Origin: Ophelia neglecta
Taxonomy: Eukaryota
Reading direction: 5' to 3'
NCBI GenBank assembly: GCA_965285935.1
Contig: OZ260667.1
Span: 31,992,001 to 32,056,000 of the forward strand
Length of the DNA: 64,000 bases
The notes under the pieces were generated by a model. It worked only from the letters and a program-made list of their open reading frames with translations, was not told where the DNA came from and did no database searches. Made by a program: the position numbers and the translations under genes. Positions 25,552-55,800 of this stretch are shown in pieces. How positions within the stretch are numbered: the stretch's first letter is position 1; each line of letters starts with the position of its first letter.

Positions 25552-25657
25552 CTGTTTGTTCCATGTGACCCCAGTGGTGTGGTACTGTTTGATGTAGGCC
25601 TGAATCTCTCCCAAAGTCTGTAGCCAGGCCTTCACCCAATCAACATGAGTGGCATCC
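25552..25657 (-). CDS. CAP: CAP coding exon 7 (end of helical folded domain): (K)DATHVDWVKAWLQTLGEIQAYIKQYHTTGVTWNKQ
   Basis: Recognisable CAP HVDWVK..HTTG.W motif; acceptor atttcag, donor gtcagt; phase 2 to 0; 106 nt. Confidence 0.95.
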
Positions 25658-28600
25658 CTGAAATCACAATCAAACACTGTCAAAAAGGAAATTTTGGTGC
25701 ATGAAATTTTCTCGGAAAGGGCTACCTTAATTTTTGGCTCATGTTCACAGAGGTAAATCTGATTCATTGCGGTCCTGTTATGATGAATGCTGTCCATGTC
25801 TCAACAACCACCGGGCACAACAACTCCCCTTACAAATATTGATAATAATGACAAGGCACATATCAGGAGATTTAACATGAATAAAAAGAACAAAAATAAT
25901 TGGGATTATTCTAGTTGGCCTCAAATGTAGAATATGAGAAACTACAGTAATAAATCACTGACAGCATCTAGAAAGTTTCTATCTAACACCACATATACAG
26001 AACCACATACGTTTATCAGGATATACAGCATTAGATAACTGGGGGCTTTTTCAGAAGATTTTTTCACAAGTTTGTTGGTTTTATTTGGAAAGAGAAAACA
26101 GTTTTTTTTCCAACCAAAAAATGTTTGGGCCACAGTAAGTAGAAATGTTGTTTTGCTGCAAAATAAATAGTTTGTTGCTTCAATCATGTAAAAAAATATT
26201 AATGTTTACGATAATTGTTGATATAAAAATAGGTTTGTTTGAAAGTAATCTTATAGGCCCCCTCAATTTATGTCATGGTGTATTTCAAAGAAACTGCCAT
26301 GTATTTCAACCACCCAGCAGCAAATGAAGATTGGATCATGGTTACTACGATGACAGATCTGCTTACTCGGTTTTTTAGATACGCAATGAAAATGCAATGA
26401 TTCTGTCGCAAAGTGAGTAAATCTCTCAAATTTAGCGTACATATTCCTAAATTACCCACATACGGCCACCAATAGTTGCCTGAGTTTCCCTCCAGTAGAT
26501 ATAGTTATCAAATTTATAGAGTGCCCTATCTATAGCTTGGCAGTTTACCTTGCATAGTAAATAAATATCTTAGGGGGTTGGCTTGTTTTTAATGTATTAT
26601 ATGCCCTTTTGTACTAAGCACTGTGAAGTAGAGGCAAAGTGTGGGCATGTTGACAGACCGACCAGCAAAACTGAAGGGCACTTCTCAGATCCTTGTGGCA
26701 TGAACTCTACCACTGCTCATCGGCATGTATGTTTATTAGGACAGCACAGCACATTAAATTTGCATCCAGGATAGCGGTCTAGATATTTCTAGGTCCATGA
26801 GTAGCATGCCTGGATGTGGGTGGTCATACCGAGGTGGAAATAACCAGTAAGAAAATTACGCTAATGCTGACATATGATGCTACACAATATGTGAGAAGTA
26901 AAATTACAAATTTTGTTAAAAAACAATTCTATCCTGTGTGAAGTTTTAAATTAAATAACGGCATAGAAGGGGAGTGATGATATTTATTTGTACCAGCAGC
27001 ACATTATTCTGAAGGTTCAAATAGATTCTGTGCATTTCTCCTACTAAAGATATCAACAATTCGTAATGTAAATCAGCAATAGAATATCATTTAACAAGCT
27101 TGTTTCTAATTATATGATATAGTGAAAATTCAAACTGACAACATTAGCACCCTAGTAAAACTAAGAAGTCAGGGCAATGTCCTATCATTAAAGCAACAGC
27201 TGGTGGACGTACCAGAAAAAAATGTTTTACTTTTCATCACAACAAGGTCAAGACAGCAGTATACTTTGTGGCATCTTCAAATCATCCGACAACTTACTCT
27301 TACAGAGTCTTAATTTACAAGATTATCCATCTAAATGCTCTTCACCGCCTATAAAAACTTGGTCTCCAGAGCTAAATAAATCCCAAAATGCACTTGTGTT
27401 CTTAAGTTGTTTCTGCCTTGGCTTTCAGCAGTTCCATAAATACATATAACTATGCTCACCCCCTCCCTGCTGGTTCACCCTTGTTCCGAGAAACATGATA
27501 TAGTGGAGTACTAATTTAATAAACCACATGCTTTTTTAGCATAAGGTCTATGGCACTTAATTGCAAGTTAAGTCACTGGTTTACAATGAGAGCAATATTT
27601 TAAATGAAGGCGCATAAAATCTGCTTAGAAGCTTACTGTTTCAGTTGGGGGGTAGCCGAGGATGCCTTCAGACAGAGGGACAGTGGTGCACCTTTGTTAT
27701 ATAGTACAACAGACTTGTGACATGCCTATTTGTATACAGACATATCAATAATTACTTTAATTTTAATTTGGCTTCCAATATCTTAGTAAAGTCAAAAGAA
27801 CACAGAGGTGAGCAATGTGGTTTCTAATCTACATATAACAAACTATGACAGCTAAATCAACAACGTGCATCAAATCTAGACAGGTTCCCATGAAAGAGTC
27901 ACAAAATAACCTTTTACAATCAATGTATCTGAAATAAGAAGTGTTCCATCATAAAATTGCACCCAAAAAAATCAGTAAACTGCCTGGTACCCTACTGCAC
28001 AAGTTGATTTTTTTGCATGTTTACATGTAAAAACAGTTCTAGCACTCCATACATTAAGAGTGACATATAAACATGATAAATCTTTTTGCCACAGAAATCA
28101 ACAGGCCGGAACCCTCCTGGAAGATGATAAACAGTTCCTTGTTATCACGCAACAAGTTATTGTCACTGAACCACACTCAGTCCAAAAGTCTGCCTGTACT
28201 TGAAAGGTACTATACATGTATAAACCTGTATAAAACTTGTCCTTCATCCTTAATCATCATGGATAGTCTGATAACCTACAAGTACTGTTATATTAGGTGG
28301 TCAGTCTGTTAGTAATTTACTGACAATCTTTCCTTAATTTTGATTTGTACCTTGCAGGGTCGGGGATGATGCCTTGAAGCAGAAGGTTTGAATGATAATT
28401 CACAGAGAAAGGTTTTTATAACATCTCAAACTAAAATATTTGTGCTGATTTATGCCCGACCACTTACCAAATAAGGCAGATCGCAATGCATGCCCCCTTC
28501 CCCCCCCCCCCTTACCCACAGCCGCATAAACACAACTATGAAAAGGGATAAAAAATTAAAGCCAGGGCAATCTGTCTGCCGACTGCAACAATTGGAAGCC

Positions 28601-29454
28601 CAATGCAGCAGCTTCATAAGTTTTAAATACCACTGACTTAAATTAAGATATTAAACCATTTTTGTTTGACATTTTTTATGATTTGAACTTGAAGTTTAAG
28701 GTGATATCAGAGTGTTGGAACCACAGTAAATCATTTTCTATATGCTCTATATACATTTGAGAGCCTACTTGTACAAATACAAAATTTGAAACAATTTGAA
28801 ATTATGGCATTATTTTGCTTAACATTTCCATGGCACCTGTATATTGTCAGATTTCACCCAAAATTAAATCAACTGATGTCATCATCCCTGATTTTATCCA
28901 CTTTGCATTTCTAATACTTTAGGCTGCAGAGTGCACATAAACTTTTATGAAGTAGTATGGGTTGTAGTGTCCTGAATACTATTGGTAAAAAATCACCAGG
29001 CCTAAACACTCCAAGTGTACTAGGTCTAAGGCTCAAGGCTTTGGGCATTAAAACACATTTAAAAGTTGGCAGCAGCTTCTGCTGGGAGGCTTGATACATA
29101 TAACCCTAAATTTTTCTCTGCATAAATGTGTTTTATATATTTTATTGACTTTCACCATGTAAAAAAGTAATTAATAGTGTGTCAGGATATGGGGAGGAGG
29201 CTTGGAAATCCCTAATCACTAAATTATTATCAACAAAATCAAAATATTACAAACATTTTACATTGAGTTTGAATGTTCATTATTGTTGAACTTTGCATTA
29301 TTTGCTATAATATGGTGCAATTTGTTATGAAATTTCACCATAATCATTAAAATTACCACTTTTTTTATTCATTAAAAGATCTCCTACTCACTAGTGACAG
29401 ACAGAGCTGTAGTACGGAGATTTCCAGGGATTCTATTGGCCGGTATTTACTTAC

Positions 29455-29540
29455 TTGTCTCGGTACTCCTTGAGGACCCGGTTGGTGTAGAACTGTCCAG
29501 CATCCGACATCTCTTTGACATAGGGCCCAGGAGCCGGAGA
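29455..29540 (-). CDS. CAP: CAP coding exon 6: [28 protein letters not shown](K)
   Basis: CAP signature [19 protein letters not shown]; acceptor tctttccag, donor gtaagt; phase 0 to 2; 86 nt. Confidence 0.97.
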
Positions 29541-31507
29541 CTGGAAAGAAAGAAGAAAACTGTTTCAGCAAGATCCAAAACTTATTCTACTACAAGCAGA
29601 GTCTGAAGTTATTCTTTCATATCTTGATTATGTTCAACAATATTAACACTTTATTTTTCTATATATATTTTCTTTACCTTAGGATCTGGTCATCGTAAAG
29701 AACCAATGGGATTTATTTCACAGTTTCTACCCATGCTAACATGTTAAAGTGTCAGCAAAAACCAATTACCAATGTTAAAATTTCTTTATCATTATTCTTA
29801 CAACTACAAGACGAAACAAATTGTAACACAACTGGGCACAAAACTGGACTTCAAAGCAAACCAGATAATATTTGAAGAAACAAAAGTTGTGTATGTTAGC
29901 CCTAGCTATCTCAATTGGCAAGAAGCCATCTGGCAATGAACATGCCCATGTTGAGAATTTACTAAGAAGTGACAAGAACTCTTTAGTCATGAAGGTTAAA
30001 AGGTCATGTCACAATAATGCAGAAAGTATGCCATATTTTTAGCTGCGGTGACATAAAAGCTCACTTGTCAGTGAATTATCAACATACATGCAATGACCAC
30101 TAGGCCTGGATCTATTGAAAAACCATTTAATTTAATGGCCCATAATATTCATTGTTTTGGCTCTCAGATTATTTCGCTGCCCTGCTCTTTTGCATTTCAA
30201 TGGTATCCTCATCAGGCACTCACTGTGCCTCTTGATTTTGTGAACCTTCTTATTCTTGGAACAAATAAGGGGCTCACAAAATGTCCAAATAATCTTTTAT
30301 TTTTTCAGCCTAGTCTATGATTTAAGACTGTCGCCATCTATTTCTTTACACATTATAAATTGATTTAGGCCATTTAATGAATTTTCCACTTAAAGCAGGC
30401 AACATTGGTCTGCATTAAAAAAGTTACAACACCCCATCAATGTCTTCTATATTTTAATAACCTGCAGACATGTTTACCGGAATATTTAAGGACAAAACAG
30501 GTAAAAAACCCGGCCAACTGTCACCACCAGCTTATAACCTGTCAACATTAGTCATAGCGTACGGCTGTATATCAAGTGATATGTTAGAATAAGTCAAAGT
30601 TTAATATAAAAAAAATGACTGGCAAGATGACTCTGGGCAGACACCCACATGCTTACCACACAGTTAGTGTATCATAGGCCTTGTTTAAACACTTGTCAGA
30701 TTATTCATTCTATTAATTAGTTTTTAATTAATACATTCTGATATCATATTCATAAGAAAACAAATAGGTATATATCGTTTGGATCTGCAGCAATCATTAA
30801 AGTATAATTGAACAAAAAATTCAAGCCTGTTCGGAAAGCAATGATAAATACTGGTGTAAGATCCACTATGCATGTACATGTATCTGGAATATGCTATAAG
30901 AAGTGACCAATACTGAAACACACTTAGCCAGTGCGAGCTGGCTGTTTTTGTTTTCTAGAGACAGCATGCTTAGTGGATTATATAGGGTAATATTTATATA
31001 AAATCAATAAAAATTGGGTGCAAAAGGAATTAAAACAGAAAACTTGGAGATAATATCAACAAAACTGTACAAAATTAAACAATGTCCTACCCCAGGAAGG
31101 GCAATATACTGAAAAGAAATCAGGTTATGGAATTACAACATGTGACCCCATTATTCCCAATCTTAGATGACTAAATATTAATTTTCTATATCAAGCAAGC
31201 TTTGTCAGGCACCATGTGATTATAACATTAAACTTATAGCGATTGTCAATAAAACTGAGTTGGAAACTAAACTTTTCTATATATATGCATATCCGAGCTT
31301 AAAATGTGAACACAATAATTTATTGGAAACAACCTGAGAAATCCCATTACTAATTTCATATTTTATTAAGAATCCCTCGTCATGCCCTCTAAGGACTGGG
31401 GGCAACTAATAAGCTGTCATTTTCAACTTGTTGCAAAAAAGGTTGCCTGCAGCACATCTTTCATCAGTTACAGCATATCAGATTACAAAAAAACAGTAGA
31501 TTCTTAC

Positions 31508-31597
31508 GATGGCAACCCATCCAAGGGCTGGTATGGACTCTGAGATGGCACTTAAGTGGTTGAAGAAGGAGCTGCCGCGGTTCTTCTCTCGGAACTC
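31508..31597 (-). CDS. CAP: CAP coding exon 5: [30 protein letters not shown]
   Basis: CAP signature FREKNR.S..FNHLSA.SE.IPALGWV; acceptor ttttgtag, donor gtaaga; phase 0 to 0; 90 nt. Confidence 0.97.
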
Positions 31598-31958
31598 CTA
31601 CAAAAGTAAAGTCGGACAATCAGTCTGTTTCTAGAAGCAACCATTCATACTAACACTTGCGTTAATTTGAATATCCATTCAAGTTGGCTTGCTAACACTA
31701 GTTACTTTCCATCCTGTCTGTTTCCTACAGCCTGTTACTTTTCCTGAATCGCACTGTTGTATAGCTAGAGATAGGAACAATCTTGTACTATGTAACTAAT
31801 AAAAAAAATCATTTTCATATAAAACTACTGCCTTGAAAGTTGTACTTTGATTGGTTTAGGGTTATTTTAAGTATACATGGCACAGCAAATGCTACCCGTT
31901 TTATATTATGGGATCATAAATATTAATTTAGAAATGTGTTTTTAATTCAGATTATTAC

Positions 31959-32012
31959 CTGTATGGCCTGTATTCCGTTGGCCTGAGGCATAAGGGCTTG
32001 CTGGAGGTCGTT
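31959..32012 (-). CDS. CAP: CAP coding exon 4: NDLQQALMPQANGIQAIQ
   Basis: Acceptor ggtttatag, donor gtaata; phase 0 to 0; 54 nt; fills the expected helix between flanking exons. Confidence 0.9.
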
Positions 32013-32462
32013 CTATAAACCAGAAAATATAAATAACAAATGATTGATACTGAGATAAACAAAATGGTAAGTTAATACTAAATCACAACTCCCTCTTAAA
32101 TTTAATATCATTAACTATGCAGTAAATAAAAATCATATGGTTACATTGCAATTATTTAACAGTGGTACCAGCACTATCCATGACCAGAGTGAGGGAAATG
32201 CATGGCTCTCTCCTGGACCATGTCAAATGTACTTATTTCATCACAAGTGACTAGGTCAGATATCAACACTTGTTTAGCAGCAGGCTGGGTCATAAGTCAG
32301 TTAATCAAGGAGTGTTTTGCGTCAGAGGTTAAGATAAATCTAAATATAGTGTGCTAATGTTTAAGAGATTTAAGACCAGAAATTTGGGAATATATTAATC
32401 GGAGGAAAGTCTGGTATGCCGATTCAGTCTAAGTTAACCTTTTTCCATGTACATGTACATAC

Positions 32463-32540
32463 CTGAGCAGGTTGTTTACATTTTGAAGCTTTCACCAGGA
32501 ATTCTCTCTGGGAATCAAACCCAGATTTGACCATGGCCAC
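32463..32540 (-). CDS. CAP: CAP coding exon 3: VAMVKSGFDSQREFLVKASKCKQPAQ
   Basis: Acceptor ctttcccag, donor gtatgt; phase 0 to 0; 78 nt; CAP-like QR.FL..AS...QP. Confidence 0.93.
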
Positions 32541-32800
32541 CTGGGAAAGAACAGTACGAAATGGTAGGTAAAAATCAGCCAGGTGATATTAATAAGGTTG
32601 AATTAATCATCATCTAAAATGTCATTAGTATAAACATCATACATGTTATATCTTAACAAACCTAATTGAGATTCCTCATATTGCTAATAATTCTGCCAGG
32701 GAGGTCACACTAAATGTAAATTAGATAAAGTTTATGCCTCTTTTCTCTATCTATAAGTTCATTTAATAATAAATAAAGATAAATCAGTTGCTATGGTTAC

Positions 32801-32904
32801 CTGGGTCTGAACATCACCGCCTATCTGGTTGCTAAGGGAGACAAACTTGGTAAAAGGTCCATTTAAAATGTCGTCGTAGGCGACAACAAATTGAGCCAAC
32901 ACCT
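32801..32904 (-). CDS. CAP: CAP coding exon 2: (E)VLAQFVVAYDDILNGPFTKFVSLSNQIGGDVQTQ
   Basis: Acceptor gtttttcag, donor gtaacc; phase 1 to 0; 104 nt; CAP-like V.AYD..L.GP...S..IGGDV. Confidence 0.95.
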
Positions 32905-33561: not shown

Positions 33562-33970
33562 CTTCCTCTTGAGCTTCAGGCCTCATGGCGACGGCCTGAG
33601 GTGTCTTCGGTGCCTTAAACCTAATGACTTGAGTTTGTTTGATGTTGTTGAGATCCAGTTTTCCTGGCCTATGGATAAAGGTAGAGTGGGTAGTTATCTG
33701 ATGCGCAGGGTTTTTCCACTTTTTGCCTTCCCCATTGCCTTGTAGCCCAATCTTGTTAGACGAGGGCAGGATCTTGTTCATGGTCTGGGCAAGTGGAACT
33801 TGGCCAGTTTTTTCCACCACAACTACAGTGGTTGCAACGTCCTTGTCCGAGCTTTTGGACGTGTGCGGCTCGAGAGCAGACGCAGAGCTTTCATCACCTC
33901 GCTTGCAGTCCGACGCTTTAGTGGGTCGCCGAGAGATGGGCCTCAAAACAACATTGAAAGGGCCATACAT
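33562..33970 (-). CDS. CAP: Putative alternative first coding exon of CAP (136 codons, MYGPFNVVLRPISRRP...RPEAQEE); exon probably starts at 34043
   Basis: Acceptor tgtcttatttatccag before 34043; ATG at 33970 is the first ATG downstream, with an in-frame TAA 4 codons upstream; phase-1 donor GAA G|gtaaat matches the phase-1 acceptor at 32904; CpG retained in an otherwise depleted intron. Confidence 0.65.
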
Positions 33971-36900
33971 ATTGGGATGTTATCTGTGTAATACCACCTG
34001 ATGACTGCCTTAACGTGCAACACAACCCACAATCACCAGCCAACTGGATAAATAAGACACAAATCAAGACACAAATCAAATCCCAATCAAGAGGGCAGTT
34101 TACCACTGCTTCAGTAAATCTAAACCCACTCCCTGTCCACAAATCAGCTTCTTGTAAGTTTACAGTAAACAAGTTCGTAGAAATGTCAGCAGATTCTAAT
34201 CTCACACATCCAACAGGGTACCTGATCTAGTGTTTTATGGAAATTTTAATATAACCTTCTACACTAATGCTCCTTGAAGATTCCAGACACCTCACAGGTA
34301 GATGATATAATTATTAGGTTTCTTGAATCCGACAGAAAGCACAAGGTTAGACAAGTCTTATCAAAATTGTAAGAACACAGACATTCCGGTAGCCCTACAA
34401 GTAGTCGAAGAAGTATACAGAATATCTACATGGTCGTATGGACCAGCAATAAATGGTACTTGACTTCATAAATCACAACTAGTTTGATATATCACAAGAT
34501 GCACTTGAAGCAGCTGGTCTGCACGGTGGTGCTGATACAGTAATGTTTCGTTAATAAACTTGGCATCAAACCGATTCATACATAACCCAAGCCTCTGGGC
34601 TAAAACAAATCAAATCTACTTGGCGCATTATGCCCCTTGTATGATTAACATGTCTACCATATGATTAGAACTGTCCTCTAGGCAAAGAGAATAGTGGAAT
34701 GAGACAACAAGTCTACTTCGTAGTTGGAATTCATATACATGCCTACTCGTAAAAGCAGACTTTCTGGCCCAATTTGGCCAACATCTGTCACAATGGCAGG
34801 CTGATTCATTCAAACATTCATGACTGCTCAACTGTCACCATAGTTACATGCCTTCAGTGATATTCAGCTTGGACAACAAACAAACAATGACTTTATAAAG
34901 ACGTCACTGCCATCTTTTAATAAGTAAATTATATATATATATGTATATGGTATTTGCTCCTGTTCTGGAACATTTTCTGGCACACCTGGTAAGGTGGGGT
35001 GATAGGACAGGTTATACCCCTTGTATCTTTATTGGGTTCTCACTGAGAGGCCACCACATGTCCACTGAAAATGTTAAAGGAATGCCCGGGGCTTTACATG
35101 TCAAGAACAGGTAATATAAACATGTACATACAAATACAGGTGCAAAAACAACTTTCCAAAAAAAAACCTTGTCTAACAGTTACCTAGGCACAAAAAACTT
35201 ACAGAAAAAAAAGTTTACAGGGTCTCCTGAAACTGGAGGGCCTCATCTTTAGTTAAGATTTTTCTGAAATCACCCACAACTTTCATTAAGGACAAAGGTT
35301 ATTTTTAAATATTCGTTTAAAGCTAACTTTGAAGCTGGGCACAACACAACATCTCTACAAAAATTAGACTGAAGTTAACTGTTACAAAATTGTTGGCTGT
35401 TAATTAACATGTACCTTGAAAACTTTGAATGGGATGCCTAAGTATTATCATAGGTGCCACACCAGAACCGCACCCATCCTCCAACTATCATATTATGTAT
35501 TGGTTTGTTAATGGAAGGTGTCGGCAAATCCAAGTAAATAAATAAATATTAAATAGGAATTGGTCACCTCAGAGACTCGTGTTCCTCTACTTTAGACTCC
35601 TATACTCACTGTAATGTTTGTGTTTTTCAGAAGGTACCCCTTTAAAATCTCTACCCGAGCACCTTGCTGCACTGGGGTATGTAAATTAATAATCTTGTCT
35701 CAATTGAGTCATGCCACTTTCAGCAGTGTAAAAATTAGAGAAGAAAACCTGCGAGATAACCTTACAAATTTAGCACACTCTTAAGACTTTTCAATCCATT
35801 TGCACATTCTCATTGATTAACACAATAGGTTTTTGCATTATCCCCAAGCAAAATTTAACAGTTATGGAATTTAAACAAAAATAACCTGAGCCTTCACCTA
35901 ATTCCTACTTAAGGAAAAAAACCCAGAATGAGGGAAACCAGGAGCATGTAATCAGTTATAAAACAGGAGTGAATCTTAACTGATAAGTCACACCCTAAAT
36001 ATTGTATTCGAGTGGTAGTAGTCAACAATCAGGAAGTCACAACCTTTAGTGGCTATTTCACTGCGTGATTTAGAGGAATCCCCTACAGAAAAGCAGAAGT
36101 TAATGTAAATGATTAAGTTTGCCTTTTCTACTAGACAATAACGACCGCTTTTGGGAATTAGATCCCTGCAAGTGTAGTTTTGTTCAGTGCTATTTTGTTT
36201 CTAGGTTTATATTAAAGTAATAACGTTGTTCTCCATATTTTTTCATGTATACAAGACCTAAAGCTAGGTCAGCCTGCAGCGATAAGTCAGGGATTGGTTT
36301 TAAAGGGTTGGAGGAGAGGGGGGGGGGGATGTGTGTACACTCACAATGGGTTCAGGAGCTTAGTCACATGTTAACTCTATCTATATCATCGAGTCTCCCT
36401 CTCAATCAGCAGCACATATAGAGGGTAAACTGACCCCCAACACCCCCACCCCACCCACAGTATTCTTCACCCCCAAGTCTTCTCCTGATATTTCAATATA
36501 TCACTTCTTCATCGCCAGTCTATAATATAAGATCAAAATACCAGAAGGCTTTCATGGTATCTAGCGTAAAACAAAAAAGATATACGCTTTATTCTAAAAA
36601 AAAAGGTCTCTGAATGCCCTACTTTCACAGGATTTGATGGCCAACAATTTGTTACCTGATAATACCTAGACAGTTTGAATCTTATGGTAGATAGCAATAA
36701 ATCATCTTCTTACACTGATTATAAATTTTGCAATATACATTAAGTTGCATAAATATTTCTTTAACAGTCAACAATTTTTAAGCAGCAAGGCTATTATACA
36801 ACACTGCCAGACTAATACTTTATAATGTCTTCCTTCAGCTCAATTTTATAGACGAAAATAAACAGACATTGCTGCTCCACTAAAACATCATATTGGCTAG

Positions 36901-40389: not shown

Positions 40390-40498
40390 CGGGACTAGAG
40401 GCGGATCCCCCGCCACCACCACCGCCACCAGTGGCATTTTCCAGACGTGCTGTCACTGCCTCTAGACGGGCTACCAGTCCAGCGATCTCGGCGGCCAT
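40390..40498 (-). CDS. CAP: CAP coding exon 1, canonical start: MAAEIAGLVARLEAVTARLENATGGGGGGGGSASSP (RLE oligomerisation motif)
   Basis: LVARLE.VT.RLE motif typical of CAP N-termini; strong context AACATGG; donor CCC G|gtaagt, phase 1; 109 nt. Confidence 0.95.
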
Positions 40499-40747
40499 GT
40501 TCGGTTCAATATCTTCAGTCCGATGACTCTGTTCTAGCTTGACGTGTTCTGGATTTACAACGGTATTGTTGTTATAGGCAAACTGCGATTGGCTGAAACC
40601 TGGGTTAACGTTTGCGTTAAGATTTGCCTTCTTCTTTTTCCGCTCTTCCCAAATTAAGTTCTCCTGGCTTCTCGCCTTACGAACCTCTGGAGGCGAATGA
40701 TTTTTGAGACAACAATAAAAGATACTTCCTGTGTGTTTTTCGGACAT
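40499..40747 (-). CDS. CAP: In-frame 83-aa N-terminal extension of CAP from an upstream ATG (MSEKHTGSIFYCCLK...RKKKK...)
   Basis: Open frame continuous with MAAE; no convincing polypyrimidine acceptor between the two ATGs; nearest good acceptors at 40808, 40849 and 40912; CpG retained. Confidence 0.6.
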
Positions 40748-40757
40748 TCCGTTTATC

Positions 40758-40769
40758 TTATGTCCACAT
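40758..40769 (-). promoter_or_regulatory. Three-codon uORF (ATG TGG ACA TAA) ending 10 nt before the upstream CAP ATG
   Basis: Read directly; lies inside the exon whichever of the acceptors 40808/40849/40912 is used. Confidence 0.55.
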
Positions 40770-43700
40770 CCTCTGGTGGAGAGTGTACTTAACTCAGATG
40801 ATCTGTTCCTGCAAAAGGCTCTGGGTCCTTTCTGGTTTGATACGAGTACCTATATAAACAGGTCAATCAAAGTTCAATTTGGAAAATGTCACCATGCATG
40901 GTCTATTCTGAACTGTTGAAATTGGAAAATATCTACAGTAACTTTTAAATCTAAGATTTAGAATTTGAAGGAGTAGCATACAGTGTGTCACAAATAGGGG
41001 GCAGACAAACAACGGCTTACAGAACTCATGGACATAAATAGCTATAAGTGTGTGAGGAGTAAGGTAGGGAGGGTTGTCATACTCTCAGTTAGAATGTCAG
41101 GTCATTAACTTTGTAATTCAAGAAGGTTCTAGAATTAGGCATAAATCCTACCTTGGAATGCTACATCTACGGTGGATTATACATAACACCAGTTAAAATA
41201 GCCCCCATGGCACCTGGGAGGTGCAGATATGTTATCAGTTTGTCGGAATTAAAGATACCGGTACATGAAGTTAGAAATACACCTGTACAAACTAAGGCTC
41301 ATCATTGTATTTGAAAACACATTACACTAAAACATTGTCATTTCATTAGTAATTTATTCTAGACTTATTATAAGACTCAAGTCAAATAATGTTACTATTT
41401 TCGGACTAAAAGTTTTAATAAACTTCCAGCAGTTTCATGTCAATTAAGAAATGAGAGGTGTTTTACACTAAATCTGTCTTTATTGGTCTCACATCTGATA
41501 TCAAATTTGCCGATAGCCAATACTTGCTGTCATAAGTGTCATTGCTAAAAGTGAATTTCTAACCTCCTTCGAGTTCCGACAAGCCCGAAAAACAGTTACC
41601 TCATCACCTCTCAGTGCCATAGAGACTCTTTTAGTCCAGGACTTGTAGGTGTATACATGCTATCTCTAGATCATGCTCTAATACTGGTATCTGAATATTA
41701 TCATTTTCTAAATTATATAAAGTGCCAGCACTGAGCATTAAATTATTTCAATGTCAAACTGAAACAATCGGATAAATTATTGGAATAGCATAAAATTACA
41801 AAATTTTGGGAAAACAAAGTTAGGCTGGTATTAAGGAGTTTGCAAATTTAAATTTTCAATACAGATTCAATTTAATGCTTCAAAGTTTCATGTGGTACAA
41901 TATCTATAAAATGCCTGGGAGCATTAGCCCAGTGTGATTTAAAGTCAAACTTCTTCCTTTTTCAGTAAGCACAACACAACCGAATTTAAGCACATTCCTA
42001 CAGCATGAGCACCGGTAAGTTGTGAAGAGGGTGACCAATTGTTAAAACCTTTTAAGCACATTGTGAGTGGCATTATATGGTAGACAGCTAAAGATTTTGT
42101 AGTACTAAAATCTTTCTTTATTCAACTGACCAGAAAGCACCCAGTTAACCAAAAAACTAAAGCTATTACTCCTTTTTTTCCGAACTGGCCTATGATGTAT
42201 CTTGGGAACCTGTCAGGAAAATAAATAATTAAGAAGACAGTGATTAAAACAAACATAAAATAGAGGTAAACTGTGTCTGGCCCAAATACTCTCAGAGAGA
42301 GCTTATTGAAAATAGTTAACTTGAAAAATTGCATTGGAAATATACACCGTAAAGAAAGAGAAGTCACTAATACTGAAAACAAAAAATTCAGCAAGTACAG
42401 TAGTTCCAGCCTAATTTACCCATGAATGCGTATGCCAAGTTTTTTGGGGGGAGGGGGGGGGGGCTCTTTTATGCATCCCCTTTTTTTTACTTCATTTCAA
42501 GAGTTTTTATTTACTTAAAGTTACATAAGTTACAAATTATTTCTGGTCTTGTTTAATATATATCATACGCTGGAGGGGAAATATTAGGGTTGCAACTACT
42601 GTAAACTTTGTAATCCCTGATATTGCTGTATAACACCATATATATAAGACAGGATCAACAAGTTGACATGATGGGGAGTATGAAAGAGTTGTCTGTTACG
42701 GCTAGCTAGTTATGTCATAAAAATATGATTGCTTACCATATTTAACCATGTATAAAATATTATATCAGATAAGTGAATTATTATGTGAAAATGTCAAATA
42801 TAGATGGGACATTAATGAAACCCTGTCTCACTCCTCTGTCAATCATTGCTCACCCTGAATATCATGGTGACATACTTGAAAATTTAACCACATGCAATCT
42901 AATAGAATTCTATGCAAAATGCAATGTTAGTATTACTAAGAAATACTTTTGACTTTTTGTAAGTTCAATAGTTGTGAACTAGGTTTAGTAAAGATAGAAA
43001 GAGAGGTCCACAGCCATAGCTACAGCACCCAATGCACCTATGTTTGAAATAAAGAAATAAACATTATTAACTCAATCATTAAGTAATGTGAATCAATACA
43101 GACACTAATAGATAATACAAGTTTCTATTTAAAGAAAATAATCCATACATAGTTCTGCAACGTAAACATTAAGTACAAGATCAACATATATCAAAAGTAT
43201 CAAGTAATTATTCAATGAGGGACCAAAATCAATTAGAGAATGTCTACATTAAAAATAAAACCAATAAAACACTGTTTTGTTGCTGGAGTTCAATGCAATT
43301 GGGTAAAGCAATAAAACCCTGGTGGATGGTAAAACCCTATCACTAGTTTTAAGCATTAGGCTCTGAAATCAATATTTTAATTGTTTTGATTAAACAAATA
43401 ATGCAGCCCTTTACGAATTTATCTCAGGGTAATCTATACTCCAAACTCATGAGTAATTACTTTGGAATTTCTGCACATGTATTGCTGTCAGGAATTTCTC
43501 TGCTTTTAACTGATTAAAATATACTTTACTGAATTTTCAATACACTCTTTAAATGAGCTAATAATTTTCAGACTGGCCACTGTTATCCTAGGACAGTTAG
43601 GTGTCTGGAAGCAGTTATATTTTTGGCCTTAACGGGTTGGGAATTCAAGGGGGAAAATTCTTGGTCTACTTGAGTGTTTCTTTCTGCTAACTTTCAACTT

Positions 43701-44421
43701 GGATATTTCCATTTTACTCATACAGTGGTAACAATGATAAAATGTGATCTAAATAGGGTTTACATTCACTCTTTCAGATTCAGAAGTGTCCAAGTTTTTT
43801 CTGAGTTACAAATGCATCTCCATTAGAAATAGGTATCAAAGTCCGAACCTGGTCCATGTTTGGAGTTTTTCAACCCTCATTTAAAAGCATGAAGAAATTT
43901 TCTTTGGGGATTTAACACACCCACGGGAAGAAAAGTGTCAAACATACAAGGTGGATTGAACATTTGTGTATCAAATCAACTATATTAAGTTAATTGTTTT
44001 ATTTACAAATATTGAAATGAGAAACAAACTATAAGAACCATCTAGATTTTAAAAGAGATAAACGAATAAACATGATGCTACTGCTGTGTGTAATATTCAA
44101 GGCAAGATTTTAAAGCTTAATAACAACATTTTCAAACTAATTATGATAAAAACAATATATTTATAGATAGTGATAGCAATAGTGATGTTCTTGATTGTTT
44201 GACCATCGCCCAGCTGTTGGCCCTTACCCAAAAAAATATCTAAGACGTGTAAGGCTCTTTCGACAGTTGGCCCAAGCCGGCTTGTTGACAGTTCATTCTG
44301 TTCCGGTTGGGAAATAATAAGATTCTACGAGAACATTTCTCTGTAATACTCTTAACGGGGGCCATAAAATTAACTATCATGGGTGACTAGACGGTGTTTT
44401 ATGGTTTGTTATCCTTGATCA

Positions 44422-44662: not shown

Positions 44663-44800
44663 CTTTTCTGCCGGAGGGAGTGTCAGCAATTCCGCTACAG
44701 GGGTCGCTGCAATAGGCGGAAGTCCTGTTCTTTACGTGCAGAGTGGAGTATGCATCGGCTACTGCCAGCTAACTCGCAATCCAGCACAGCAGTTCGCACG
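44663..44800 (-). other. CAP: Putative non-coding first exon of CAP (5' end approximate)
   Basis: Donor AAAG|gtacga at 44663/44662; GC/CpG-rich; lies at the boundary between CpG-depleted and CpG-normal DNA; its only ATG (44755) opens a 7-codon ORF. Confidence 0.6.
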
Positions 44801-45571
44801 GTAGTACTACTTCGCCTTCGTTAAATAGCAATGGCAGACATCATCATAAGTATATTTAGCGAAACCTGTAGATTGTGACCACACAAAGTCTGTTTTGACA
44901 GGTTGATTTTACTTTGTAAGGGACCATGGTTCCCATATAGAATATAGGCCTAGTATTCGCAATTGTCCCGATATTCTTCTGATATCGATTTTTTTTTGTT
45001 AAATATATTTCTTAAAATATATATATTAGCCAAATACATTTGCAATATAATAAACATGACCATTTTTTTTATAAAATTGTCAAACCTTGTCGAAAACACC
45101 AATTTTGCATGACATACTCCCAACTTTCATGCATTCTGAACCCATTACAACTTCGTTGATATTTACGATGGCGGCCATTTACAAGAGGGCCTCATTTGGC
45201 AAATCAAAAGAGGAATTTTACAGAACTTCATTTGTTTTGAGTACCACAAGTAACGAAAATGTTCTTGTTAATGTTAGTTTTAAAATTTGTTGAAAGTTAC
45301 TTTAGATTTTTGAACATACGAACCAGAGGTACAATGAAAAGTATCATGAAAAGTGTCGACTTCTATTTACAAATGCTTGGTGATTGGATACCCGGCAGCT
45401 AATCTCAATCAGTTTTCAAGAAAGTACCCATTAACTTGGCCCCAATACATCAGAACCACCAGTTCCCTGGCCAACATCGATTCCGATGTCAGTAAACTTA
45501 AAAGAGGATGGTAAACAAATAAAATATAAAATCTGTATAGCAACGAAAAATAATCAACAGTTTTCAAAATG

Positions 45572-52000: not shown

Positions 52001-52758
52001 TCCTTTTTTATCAGCTATTATATATGGGACACAATAGCTTCGCCTGGGCTACGAAGAGCATTTCTTGTTTGCTTGCTAATATTTTTGAGAATCTTTGTTT
52101 ACAACCACCCACAACTAATTCACTAGGCCTATTATGAAACGAAGGGCTCGCTTTTGCTCTTAGGCAGATGAATATTACCTATCTGACAATAACTGCTGTA
52201 AGGAGAGCATATTTATTTCTCTACTGCACAAGTAGACTATTAAAGAACCAGTAATTAGGAGAACGCTTGTGATGCCGAAATCTCTCGGGCCAGCATTAAG
52301 CCGCACAGCAATTATGAAAAATTAACTTGACTAGCCTACCAACCGACAGAAAACCTTCTCTACCGATGCATGCAGGCAACTGTTAAGTGTAAGTTTGTGT
52401 ATATATGCTTGTTATGATAAATAATGTAATATATTACATGGCGCATTTCGTCGAAGAGCTTATGTTAGGTTTTGGCTTGAAGGCAGAAACAAATATGCCT
52501 AGCTTTTTTTCGGAAAAGGGTGTTTTTCAAGTTGTGTGCTTTTGAAGTTTTTTAGGGATATAAAGTGAGGTATTTGCTTAAAACGTGTGAAGAAGTCACT
52601 CAGCAAAACGATTTGCATCTTTTGGCGTCTCAGACCGGATCCTATACCTTAGACACTAGTTAATTTGTAATCAGTATTCGTCGCATCTGGGAAGAATTCT
52701 GACACGGAGTAAAATAATTTTTGGGTCGTTGTTCATCGTCATGAAGGAGGTATGGATT

Positions 52759-52876
52759 GATAAATATCGGCTTGCTGAGGAAGCAATATGCAGTTATATT
52801 GGCTTGAAGCAAGTGGATATTATTTGCTGAATGCCAATATAGCTCATATTGCTACCACGTCAAGTCAATATTTATC
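52759..52876. repeat. Imperfect inverted repeat / ~118-nt hairpin
   Basis: GATAAATATCGGCTTG..AGCAATATGCAGTTATATTGGC pairs with GCCAATATAGCTCATATTGCT..CAAGTCAATATTTATC. Confidence 0.7.
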
Positions 52877-55800
52877 ATATTACATTTTTCTGTAATGTTT
52901 GAAAAAAACCTTTATTTTTCCATCGCAACAACGTTTGGGTAAACTAAACCGCTATGAGCAAACATGGTCAACGTCAACTCCAGCGAAGAAAATCAATAAA
53001 ATTAAGGCAATACCGCTAATTATTGTCTTGACATGTGAGCGGGGTTGACCAATCACACTATCCCATCCTTCTTACATACGTAATATAGGTTGATAATGTC
53101 TGTACGCTTTGAGTGGGCCTGGTACTTATGGCACCCAAACGCAAAGTCTAAAGGTAATAAATATTAAATAATAAATCGAATGTTAGTTCATGGTGCATCA
53201 GTTAATTACGGCGAAAAAATGAAAAGCCAAAGGCCAGGAGAGCTTGTATCAATTACCAAGAGAGCTGGATTCCAGGGAGGATTTTAAACTGACTGCATAC
53301 GTTGGGTTGCATGTGGTGCTTCCTGTCATGAAGTCCAACCTGCTTGGGGTAGAAGGCAATGATAGTCTAAATAGAACTTCTTAATAGCTTTAGCAGGAAA
53401 GTAAAATTGCTCAACAATAAAAGCTCCTGTGGTCTACACATCACAACAAGAGGAAGTATCTGTGGGCAGCAAAATGGAGCTTATTTACTGACAAAAGAAG
53501 GGCAGTAAATAAGGATTGCGCAGGGAGATATCTTTCATGAAGCTTATAAATCCATAACAAACAAAAACATTTGAGCACTCAGCCAGCCATTTGTTCATCT
53601 TTGAACTTGACTGTAAGGTGAGTGAGTAGCGTTACTGGGCCATTTCTATCAGTGCCTGAAGACAACAGCGGCAGCGCTCGAGGGCACAACTGCCTCTTAA
53701 TCTATAAACGCCCAATTATTCCGGGGCTTTAACAGTGAAGATGGTTGGTGTATATTTATATCACAGCATCCAACTTACGCGGACGATAATCGAAGGCGTT
53801 ATTACATGGATCAGCAATGCAACAGCTCACCAATATAATATTTATCTGTCGGTAACAACAGGTGGATTGAAGTGCGGGTACATGTCGAGATGAGCAGTTT
53901 GCCTGTAAATCTACAGTATGTCGGCTGTTTTCCGTCTCTCTGTACCACCTTCTTTGTGTTTTGTTTTATTTTACTGTGTTTCGATGGTAAACTCGCCGAG
54001 GTAATGAACCCAGCCAGATGCGGCTCATCCACCGCTCAGCGCGAGTAGCTCCAAAAAAATGACAACTAACAGCGTTCCCTGTGAATAGATGTCCTTGAAT
54101 TATCGCCCTCCAAATACTAAAAAATCAATTCCATGGATTCAAATGAAAAGGATTAAGACTCGATTGTCATTCTCTAGCAACCACTGTATAACCTTCAGAC
54201 ATATCAGGAACGACAACAAGTTAGTTTGATCGTTGTCGGTTGTGCCACCTATAGAAGTGCTTTACTATAGTCCGAAGATAAAGCTTGGTAATTGGTTGTC
54301 TTCGCCGAAGCCAAGCTTTTAATTTGCCGCTGCTGTGTCTGCTTAGCGAAATATCATCTGTCTTTGTCTCTTGGTGGGAATATGTGATCCGTCTTCGAGC
54401 AAGATACGATAAAAGACTTATAGCGTTCATTTTTATTTCAAATATCGACGAGTAACCACGGTGCTAATAGAACTTTCTCGCCTGCTAACTCGAACCCTCA
54501 TCCCTCCATCTACGGGTGCCTATCTTCCGGCCTTTACGTCCTTTTTCATCCGATTCATTGTGGCGCCATTTCCGTTGTCGAGTAGTTTTTCTCGCCTACG
54601 ATAACCACCATCGTCTGCTCCTGTTGGACTTTTTGCGGGTGGCCGTTCCCAGAGACTCCGAGTCCCTTCTGAGCTATTGAATGAGTTTGGTTGAATGGGG
54701 TTAATCTCAGGGCTGTAATCAAGTCAATATCGACTCCTGAGTTGCAAGGTTATAATCACACAAACAGAAATATCAACACCCCTCCTTTATCGCTGCTGCT
54801 ATCTGCACAGTCATATAAAACAATAGGTACAGGCATTGTTCGGAGTGCATTTCTCTGTAACTTTCCTTTCTACCCATTTCCACGACAGTGACCTTCTTAT
54901 TTCTCTACACTCAACAGTATGGTGTTAAATGAGCGTGTGGCTTTCTACAACTGTGCGTTATGAAAAGCCATAAAAAGAAAAATGGCTGTTAGGAAGAGAC
55001 CGAAATGTATGAGCAAATATAAATATGAACTATATTTACCCTGGAAAGAACTTGCCTAAGAGATTATATAAAAATATCCACCATATGATGAAGGGGTATT
55101 GCATCGAAGACATTATGGGCCTACCCACAAACGCCTTCCTCGCTACCCCCCCCCCCCCCCCCCCCCCGACAAAGCAAATTAACCCCCTTGCATTAGAAGT
55201 AAATTAAAGACCGGGCGTCCTTGGTCCCATGTGAAAAACTTATTTTCCAATATAAAATTCGCAATAGTTTTATTATTATATCTCGCAAGTTTTATACCGT
55301 TTAACTCTTGATTTGTGACTCGGTCTGGTAGCGTGCAGCTTGAGTACGTTAAGTATGCCTGCAAGCTACCCGTCCGACCTTCAGCGAAACTGTCGCCAAC
55401 TCCAGGATGTTGGCCAGATGACTGAACCTGTTAACGATAACCCCATCCTTGGAGAGCGTGTAAAGATAACTTAATCAGGGCTGTAGTAGCGTCTGGTGGG
55501 CTCATTTCTATGAGTAAAATAAGACTCAGAAAACTCAGAATATGACGTCTTGCAGCCTGGAATTTTCCTTGTTCAAAATCCCAAAGGTCGGTTCTTAAAT
55601 TTTATGCACACGCTAGCGCGTGCCAGAGGCTGTTTGGAATTAAGATTTATTTAAACAACCTGTGACTGCTCGAGCTGTCGGATAATCACCTAACTGAAAT
55701 TGATAAGGTCGACTCATCAAATTTAGATGATACACTTCATGCCTAAACGTCGCATGTTTCTTTGTTTACATCCGAATTACGGTGATACAAGAAATTGTAC

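What the first reader, a model, noticed from the sequence alone, without database searches (positions are those of the whole stretch)
40390..40747. Two in-frame start codons: a possible membrane-targeted long CAP and cytosolic short CAP from one exon
Seen: an ATG at 40747 (context GGAATGT) is in frame with the canonical ATG at 40498 (strong context AACATGG). It adds 83 aa containing IFYCCLK and RKKKK. The 246 nt between the two ATGs contain no ATG in any frame (about 4 expected in random sequence) and no good splice acceptor. Known: N-terminal di-cysteine plus polybasic clusters are typical S-palmitoylation/membrane-targeting signals, and Toxoplasma CAP makes a membrane-associated long and a cytosolic short isoform by alternative translation initiation. 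Inference: this animal CAP may have arrived at the same arrangement independently.
Basis: partly seen in the sequence, partly recalled or inferred. Interest (0 to 1): 0.72.

Follow-up and report, generated by a model that had tools for sequence, protein, structure and literature searches.

The report
Conserved membrane-anchor isoform of invertebrate CAP
This worm's gene for the actin regulator CAP has an extra upstream start that adds a tail with a cysteine pair, also seen in long CAP models of molluscs, ribbon worms and insects, which likely works as an overlooked lipid anchor tying CAP to membranes.

Summary
In detail: an in-frame ATG at 40747 (minus strand) adds 83 residues to an intact, single-copy CAP of an annelid-like animal. 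Of 28 invertebrate long CAP forms (one per lineage, this one included), 22 carry at least two cysteines in the first 15 residues: annelids, molluscs, nemerteans and insects including Drosophila. None of 208 short forms and none of 11 extended fish models do. Only the cysteine motif is conserved; RKKKK is not (2 of 28 have such a run). The motif resembles the GAP-43 di-cysteine anchor, so S-acylation is likely but untested, and a Drosophila acyl-RAC screen with pooled isoforms did not enrich capt. How the short form arises here is open. Leaky scanning fits (no good internal acceptor, weaker first start, a tiny uORF ending 10 nt before it), but two transcript-like contigs of related animals carry a short-form leader joined near the second ATG. 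No RNA data exist for this species. Ten literature searches found no description of this animal isoform.

The parts
40499..40747 (-). 83-codon N-terminal extension of CAP, from ATG1 (40747) to just before the canonical ATG2
   Evidence: CpG retention; unchanged in DNA contigs
40703..40723 (-). IFYCCLK motif (Cys12-Cys13 at 40709-40714), the conserved predicted S-acylation site
   Evidence: aligned Cys pair invariant in 10 of 10 chosen long forms
40628..40642 (-). RKKKK basic run (residues 36-40), not conserved in other long CAPs
40390..40498 (-). canonical CAP start (ATG2) with the RLE oligomerisation motif PF01213 and phase-1 donor CCG|GTAAGT
40758..40769 (-). 3-codon upstream ORF (Met-Trp-Thr-stop, -3 A) ending 10 nt before ATG1; candidate bypass element
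   Evidence: sequence; function inferred
40808..40912 (-). candidate splice acceptors upstream of ATG1 (first exon base 40849 best, then 40808; 40912 weaker)
   Evidence: 12-site model; no RNA
42131..42209 (-). predicted non-coding 5' exon without ATG (acceptor 3.5, donor 6.9, the best of 270 GT sites scanned)
   Evidence: prediction only
44663..44830 (-). candidate non-coding first exon and promoter, at the border between CpG-normal and CpG-depleted DNA; donor AAG|GTACGA is weak (1.8); 5' end unknown
   Evidence: prediction only
33562..34043 (-). candidate alternative first coding exon (acceptor 6.7, ATG 33970, 136 codons, phase-1 donor) that would replace the extension and RLE exon
   Evidence: no Pfam hit; single copy
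25552..32904 (-). six exons of the CAP helical-folded domain (32801-32904, 32463-32540, 31959-32012, 31508-31597, 29455-29540, 25552-25657); six further exons lie 46-53 kb beyond the window start

Best explanation
The exon encodes an in-frame long form of the animal's single CAP whose N-terminal cysteine pair is shared with long CAP models of other annelids, molluscs, ribbon worms and insects and is likely S-acylated, which would tether CAP to membranes through a fast-evolving spacer. Shown: the open frame, the intact 563-residue long and 480-residue short products, and the cross-phylum cysteine motif. Inferred: a zDHHC enzyme acylates Cys12/Cys13; the 70-residue spacer is disordered and lets the RLE oligomerisation motif and the actin-binding domains work near the bilayer; long subunits could co-assemble with short ones through the shared RLE motif and so localise cofilin-assisted filament disassembly and monomer recycling at a cortex. 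The short form starting at ATG2 would be cytosolic. For this species I commit, at about even odds, to one mRNA giving both forms: ribosomes that skip the weaker ATG1, or that translate the 3-codon uORF and cannot restart 10 nt later, would scan 246 ATG-free bases to the strong ATG2. In relatives the same two proteins seem to come from differently spliced mRNAs. The anchor is most simply an old protostome trait, convergent only with Toxoplasma longCAP.
For: Frame and contexts. Intact spliced model of 13 coding exons; one CAP locus in the genome; groups with Capitella and Paralvinella, SH-aLRT 96 in a quick tree of 50 rows. 22 of 28 long forms have 2 or more Cys in residues 1-15; Cys is 63 of 420 residues there and 58 of 5632 from residue 21 on (lineages are related, so not 28 independent events). 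An adjacent CC is present in 20 of the 22, preceded by F, L, M, W or Y in all 15 annelid and mollusc cases and by F-S or F-K in all 5 insects. Named carriers: Capitella, Liolophura, Patella, Babylonia, Pomacea, Elysia, Lymnaea, Biomphalaria, Arion, Crassostrea, Saccostrea, Mya, Mactra, Lineus, Tubulanus, Anopheles, Wyeomyia, Drosophila grimshawi, Harpegnathos. Controls: 0 of 208 short forms and 0 of 11 extended fish models. Extensions range from about 60 to 750 residues and do not align beyond the motif (best blastp hit Capitella 4-20, E 0.029). RefSeq lists long and short isoforms for the same species, e.g. Liolophura 642/480, Babylonia 666/473, Crassostrea 618/479. GAP-43 and MAP6 use a di-cysteine with adjacent basic residues as a membrane anchor (PMC8946247, passages). 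The D. melanogaster entry Q9VPX6 has CSS-Palm-predicted sites at Cys4 and Cys5 (PMC9374236 supplement 5).
Against: No acylation or localisation data for any animal long form. In Drosophila S2R+ acyl-RAC the capt protein group was detected but not enriched (fold change 0.82, FDR 0.56; three entries pooled, so the long form may be minor). 6 of 28 long forms lack the motif (Ostrea, Mytilus, Sinanodonta, Ylistrum partial, Octopus, one unnamed), and where a genus had several long forms I took the Cys-bearing one. Basic residues after the cysteines are absent in 5 of the 22 carriers. Many of the long forms are gene models, not sequenced proteins. A motif of 4-6 residues can arise twice, so spiralian-insect homology is parsimony, not proof. 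For leaky scanning: loci L010 and L011 carry a shared 35-nt leader, an in-frame stop and only the last 13-18 codons of the extension before ATG2, a splicing-level route; ATG1 has a purine at -3; the ATG-free statistic is modest; all 5 insect extensions contain internal Met.
Confidence: 0.66

Rival explanations
1. Same conserved anchor, but in this species too the short form comes from a separate mRNA (an internal promoter inside the exon, or a weak acceptor such as 40548), not from leaky scanning.
For: Short-form transcript-like contigs of relatives join a leader a few codons upstream of ATG2 (L010, L011); RefSeq assigns long and short forms to different transcripts in molluscs and flies; the exon is a CpG-retaining patch (1.08) above even this gene's other coding exons (0.42), as an unmethylated internal promoter might be.
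Against: No internal AG scores above -1.8, and the AG at the position equivalent to the relatives' junction (40528) scores -9.8; only 12 CpGs carry the promoter argument; no RNA.
Confidence: 0.35
2. The long form is real but its cysteines are not a lipid anchor (for example metal binding, disulphide or redox sensing, or a protein-binding motif).
For: Several forms have three or four Cys in CCxC or CxxC spacing; Drosophila capt was not enriched by acyl-RAC.
Against: Position at the extreme N-terminus with a hydrophobic residue before it matches known di-cysteine acylation signals; spacing and number of Cys vary, unlike a metal site; other long forms begin with Met-Gly-x-x-x-Ser, a myristoylation-type start (recalled consensus), which suggests repeated use of lipid anchors.
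Confidence: 0.2
3. The stretch is 5' UTR or intron with a chance open frame, and only ATG2 is used in this species.
For: No RNA or peptide evidence here; two direct searches with the exon found no relative; the extension aligns to others only over the motif.
Against: Chance open frame of this length about 0.2%; it begins with the same motif at the same place as in Capitella and a chiton; CpG retention starts at ATG1.
Confidence: 0.07
4. One reading: this animal evolved the arrangement independently.
For: The spacer sequence is unique to this species; encoding both starts in one exon without an internal acceptor may be lineage-specific.
Confidence: 0.05

Closest known systems
Toxoplasma gondii longCAP/shortCAP (PMC6785269, passages read)
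   Same: One CAP gene, two in-frame starts, weaker context at the first; two N-terminal Cys in an extension; long form membrane-bound and short form cytosolic there.
   Different: There the 36-residue extension, both start codons and the C6/C8 dependence were tested by mutation; here nothing is tested. The paper describes the extension as limited to Toxoplasma, Neospora and Hammondia. The animal protein has the full RLE, helical, polyproline, WH2 and CARP layout. Convergence between the two is inferred, not tested.
Canonical animal CAP / Srv2 / capulet (PF01213, PF21938, PF08603)
   Same: All three domains in order in an intact single-copy gene.
   Different: Carries an N-terminal di-cysteine extension; the 2020 review PMC7543520 has 0 occurrences of 'palmitoyl', 'splice' or 'N-terminal extension' (term search and passages only).
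GAP-43 / MAP6 / paralemmin di-cysteine anchors (PMC8946247, passages)
   Same: Adjacent Cys near a terminus, hydrophobic residue before and often basic residues after; several mollusc CAPs begin Met-Leu-Cys-Cys exactly as GAP-43 does.
   Different: Unrelated proteins; the basic residues are not constant in CAP; acylation of CAP is not shown.
uORF-controlled isoform ratio as in C/EBP alpha/beta (recalled, no call)
   Same: A short uORF ends just before an in-frame start, so that re-initiating ribosomes would favour a downstream start.
   Different: Here it is one unconfirmed 3-codon uORF; conservation could not be tested and its presence in the mRNA depends on the acceptor used.

Membership tests
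CAP/Srv2 family | N-terminal RLE motif (PF01213) | tested here: met
   E 1.2e-06, residues 90-117 of the exon product
CAP/Srv2 family | Helical-folded domain (PF21938) and C-terminal CARP domain (PF08603) in one frame | tested here: met
   exon matches; joined model open for 563 residues
N-terminal di-cysteine S-acylation anchor (GAP-43 type) | Adjacent Cys near the N-terminus with hydrophobic neighbours, conserved | tested here: met
   Cys12-Cys13 after I-F-Y; CC in 20 of 28 long forms, 2 or more Cys in 22 of 28
N-terminal di-cysteine S-acylation anchor (GAP-43 type) | Adjacent basic residues | tested here: inconclusive
   2 K/R in the 10 residues after the Cys here; none in 5 of 22 carriers; RKKKK lies 23 residues away and is not conserved
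N-terminal di-cysteine S-acylation anchor (GAP-43 type) | Thioester-linked fatty acid and Cys-dependent membrane localisation | not testable with these tools
   only indirect: Drosophila capt group not enriched in acyl-RAC, isoforms pooled
Toxoplasma-type alternative initiation from one mRNA | Two in-frame ATGs, weaker context first, no ATG between | tested here: met
   the first still has a purine at -3
Toxoplasma-type alternative initiation from one mRNA | Both ATGs on the same mRNA, no short-only transcript | tested here: inconclusive
   no internal acceptor predicted; no RNA holder listed; relatives show short-only leaders
Toxoplasma-type alternative initiation from one mRNA | Both starts used in cells | not testable with these tools
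   needs Ribo-seq or start-codon mutants

The most novel reading that the evidence does not exclude
Protostome animals share an ancient, unrecognised lipid-anchored CAP isoform. In flies it may also be the form that carries the RLE oligomerisation motif, which the 425-residue short form of D. grimshawi lacks, so membrane-tethered CAP oligomers could be what confines actin disassembly to the cortex. Lineages reach the long/short split by different routes (splicing in most, uORF-tuned leaky scanning within one exon in this worm) and swap di-cysteine for myristoylation-type starts in some crustaceans.
Probability: 0.45. Interest if true: 0.78.

Novelty: new variant of a known kind. Interest (0 to 1): 0.6.

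Why it matters
CAP is a core actin-turnover factor studied as a soluble protein, yet its loss in fly epithelia causes actin build-up specifically at the apical cortex (bioRxiv 10.1101/2025.09.12.675872, abstract and passages). A conserved acylated isoform would give a direct way to place CAP at membranes in most invertebrate phyla and is testable at once in Drosophila (Cys4/Cys5 of the long entry). That preprint cloned only the part matching the short CAPT-RA isoform for its transgenes, so such work may miss the anchored form. It would also make Toxoplasma longCAP one case of a recurring solution.

Tried and rejected
Direct homologue search with the 121-residue exon product, longer proteins only: 0 of 7991 candidates at E 10 or less; weak evidence, overcome by searching with a conserved C-terminal exon and Capitella CAP. 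Sequencing runs: no RNA holder listed; 3 DNA contig sets of one sample, with no splice information. ESM Atlas gave no result for this sequence. Earlier scan findings: none by place, words or sequence. Supplements of PMC6368284 (larval palmitoylome) held only 4,591 characters with 0 hits, so its protein table was not seen and may bear on acylation of capt. The BioID row for capt lists 10 low-confidence and 0 high-confidence DHHC interactions; not used as evidence. A recalled review id was not held. PMC2516187 had 0 hits for 'isoform'. Met depletion in extensions (10 of 2659 residues in 17 spiralian forms, 27 of 2460 in 5 insect forms, 1.9% in cores) was considered as support for leaky scanning and set aside, because these spacers are poor in hydrophobic residues generally. 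RKKKK as conserved polybasic signal: rejected. A retrocopy that could reveal splicing: only one CAP locus found. The careful tree did not finish; the quick tree was used only for broad placement. No structure or complex prediction was run: the extension is low-complexity and unalignable. Not-in-print claim rests on 10 full-text searches of the held library, seen as listings with abstract starts; subscription journals and bioRxiv supplements are not covered.

Full report
Observation. On the minus strand, ATG 40747 and ATG 40498 are in frame, 83 codons apart, with no stop and no ATG in the 246 nt between; 3.99 are expected from composition, P(0) is 0.0145 by shuffling and 69 of 6376 windows. The extension contains IFYCCLK and RKKKK as reported. 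An open in-frame ATG that far upstream occurs at 21 of 9786 sampled intronic positions. CpG is retained in the extension (12 observed, ratio 1.08) but not in the 165 nt before ATG1 (0.29), the flanking introns (0.27) or exons 2-13 (0.42). Three DNA contig sets from one sample match the extension without change.

The gene. The genome has one CAP locus. Thirteen predicted coding exons over about 93 kb join into an open frame of 563 residues from ATG1 and 480 from ATG2. A quick tree of 50 rows places it with Capitella and Paralvinella (SH-aLRT 96), so the animal is probably an annelid. CpG depletion starts near 44,000, where a candidate non-coding first exon ends at 44663; a second predicted non-coding exon lies at 42209-42131. 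With a model from the gene's own 12 acceptors (leave-one-out scores 3.4-7.4), the best acceptors for the exon lie upstream of ATG1 (40849: 2.4; 40808: 1.5) and none inside the extension exceeds -1.8. All of this is prediction; no RNA run was listed.

The extension is not unique to this animal. A search with the exon itself found nothing, but searches with a conserved exon, with Capitella CAP and with a profile of long forms, followed by cluster look-ups, gave many long CAPs. I took one long form with 50 or more residues before the RLE motif per genus or unnamed lineage, choosing the Cys-bearing one where a genus had several and leaving out further unnamed gastropod- and mussel-like duplicates, fungal or fused models and RLE-less forms: 28 rows with this one. 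22 of 28 have two or more Cys in residues 1-15; Cys makes up 63 of 420 residues there and 58 of 5632 from residue 21 on. 20 of the 22 have an adjacent CC, and the two nemerteans have spaced Cys. Carriers include Capitella, a chiton, gastropods, bivalves, Lineus, Tubulanus, two mosquitoes, an ant and Drosophila grimshawi. The six misses are Ostrea, Mytilus, Sinanodonta, a partial Ylistrum model, Octopus and one unnamed protein. No short form (0 of 208) and no extended fish model (0 of 11) has the pattern. Beyond the motif the extensions vary from about 60 to 750 residues and do not align; the best hit to this worm's extension is Capitella residues 4-20 (E 0.029). A run of four or more K/R occurs in 2 of 28. 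The rows are related, so the counts show breadth, not independent trials, and many are gene models.

Likely function. A conserved N-terminal di-cysteine after a hydrophobic residue, followed by an unconserved spacer, matches the GAP-43/MAP6 class of acylation anchors (PMC8946247, passages) and parallels Toxoplasma longCAP, where mutating the two Cys removed apical localisation (PMC6785269, passages). The fly entry Q9VPX6 has predicted sites at Cys4/Cys5, but the capt protein group was not enriched in S2R+ acyl-RAC (fold change 0.82, FDR 0.56, three entries pooled; PMC9374236 supplement 5 and passages). This counts against the reading but is weak, because the long form may be minor in those cells. 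I infer S-acylation and membrane tethering at about 70%. Since the long form keeps the RLE motif, it could recruit short forms into mixed oligomers (inference from the known oligomerisation role of this region, PMC7543520 passage). In D. grimshawi the 425-residue form lacks PF01213 while the CC-bearing 829-residue form has it.

How the short form is made. Against: among 80 metagenome loci, L010 and L011, from the group that includes the unnamed long form P0170 (L010 encodes P0165; L011 is 84% identical to it), share a 35-nt leader, then an in-frame stop and only the last 13-18 codons resembling P0170's extension tail before ATG2. That points to splicing (cis or trans) in those animals, which are different species from P0170's. 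RefSeq also gives long and short forms as separate transcripts. The equivalent AG in this worm scores -9.8, and the CpG patch could mark an internal promoter. My odds for this species: one mRNA 50%, separate mRNA 35%, no RLE-bearing short form 15%.

Comparison and novelty. It is a member of the CAP family by all tested domain criteria. It works, most likely, like Toxoplasma longCAP, but membership of the 'alternative initiation' class is unproven. Ten searches of the held library (listings) and term searches in a CAP review, a capulet paper and a recent capt preprint found no account of an acylated animal CAP isoform; older subscription papers are not covered. The sequences themselves are in public databases.

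Verdict. Real feature, broader than reported: a new variant of a known kind. Confidence in a conserved, likely acylated long isoform 0.66; interest 0.6; most novel reading probability 0.45, interest 0.78 if true.

Noticed in passing
window 33562-34043 (-): Candidate alternative first coding exon: strong acceptor (6.7, above 99.7% of 4499 intronic AGs), ATG 33970, 136 codons, phase-1 donor matching the next exon; would give an RLE-less CAP. Oyster, Artemia and crayfish models also have alternative N-termini joined at about this point.
   Followed up: partly
P0010, P0293/P0439, P0290/P0432, L037:70-110: A second class of long CAP starts with Met-Gly-x-x-x-Ser (Artemia, Cherax, two mosquitoes; Met-Gly-Cys-Val-Ser-Ser in locus L037), a myristoylation-type start by recalled consensus.
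   Followed up: no
P0305, P0308, P0316 (Anisakis), P0320, P0332: A third class of long CAP without the RLE motif begins with a shared short aromatic/proline motif of the type PKP(F/Y)G.
   Followed up: no
L019, L022, L025, L039, L059 (first 35 bases): Five CAP transcripts of different animals share a near-identical 5' leader ending just before the short-form start; looks like a trans-spliced leader.
   Followed up: no
window 25551 to 46.5 kb beyond the window start: A 72-kb intron separates the helical domain from the polyproline exon; ORFs of 95 or more codons in window 1-25500 look non-coding or repetitive by eye, including a tandem repeat at 2303-2661.
   Followed up: no
window 40861: The sequenced runs differ from the assembly here; that allele creates an in-frame ATG followed by two codons and a stop inside the tract of the predicted 40849 acceptor.
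   Followed up: no
P0177, P0259 (Asterias): Starfish CAP models are 678-679 residues through an apparently duplicated helical domain and have no Cys extension.
   Followed up: no
window 52700-53363: About ten-fold higher contig depth and many loose ends mark a repeated element.
   Followed up: no
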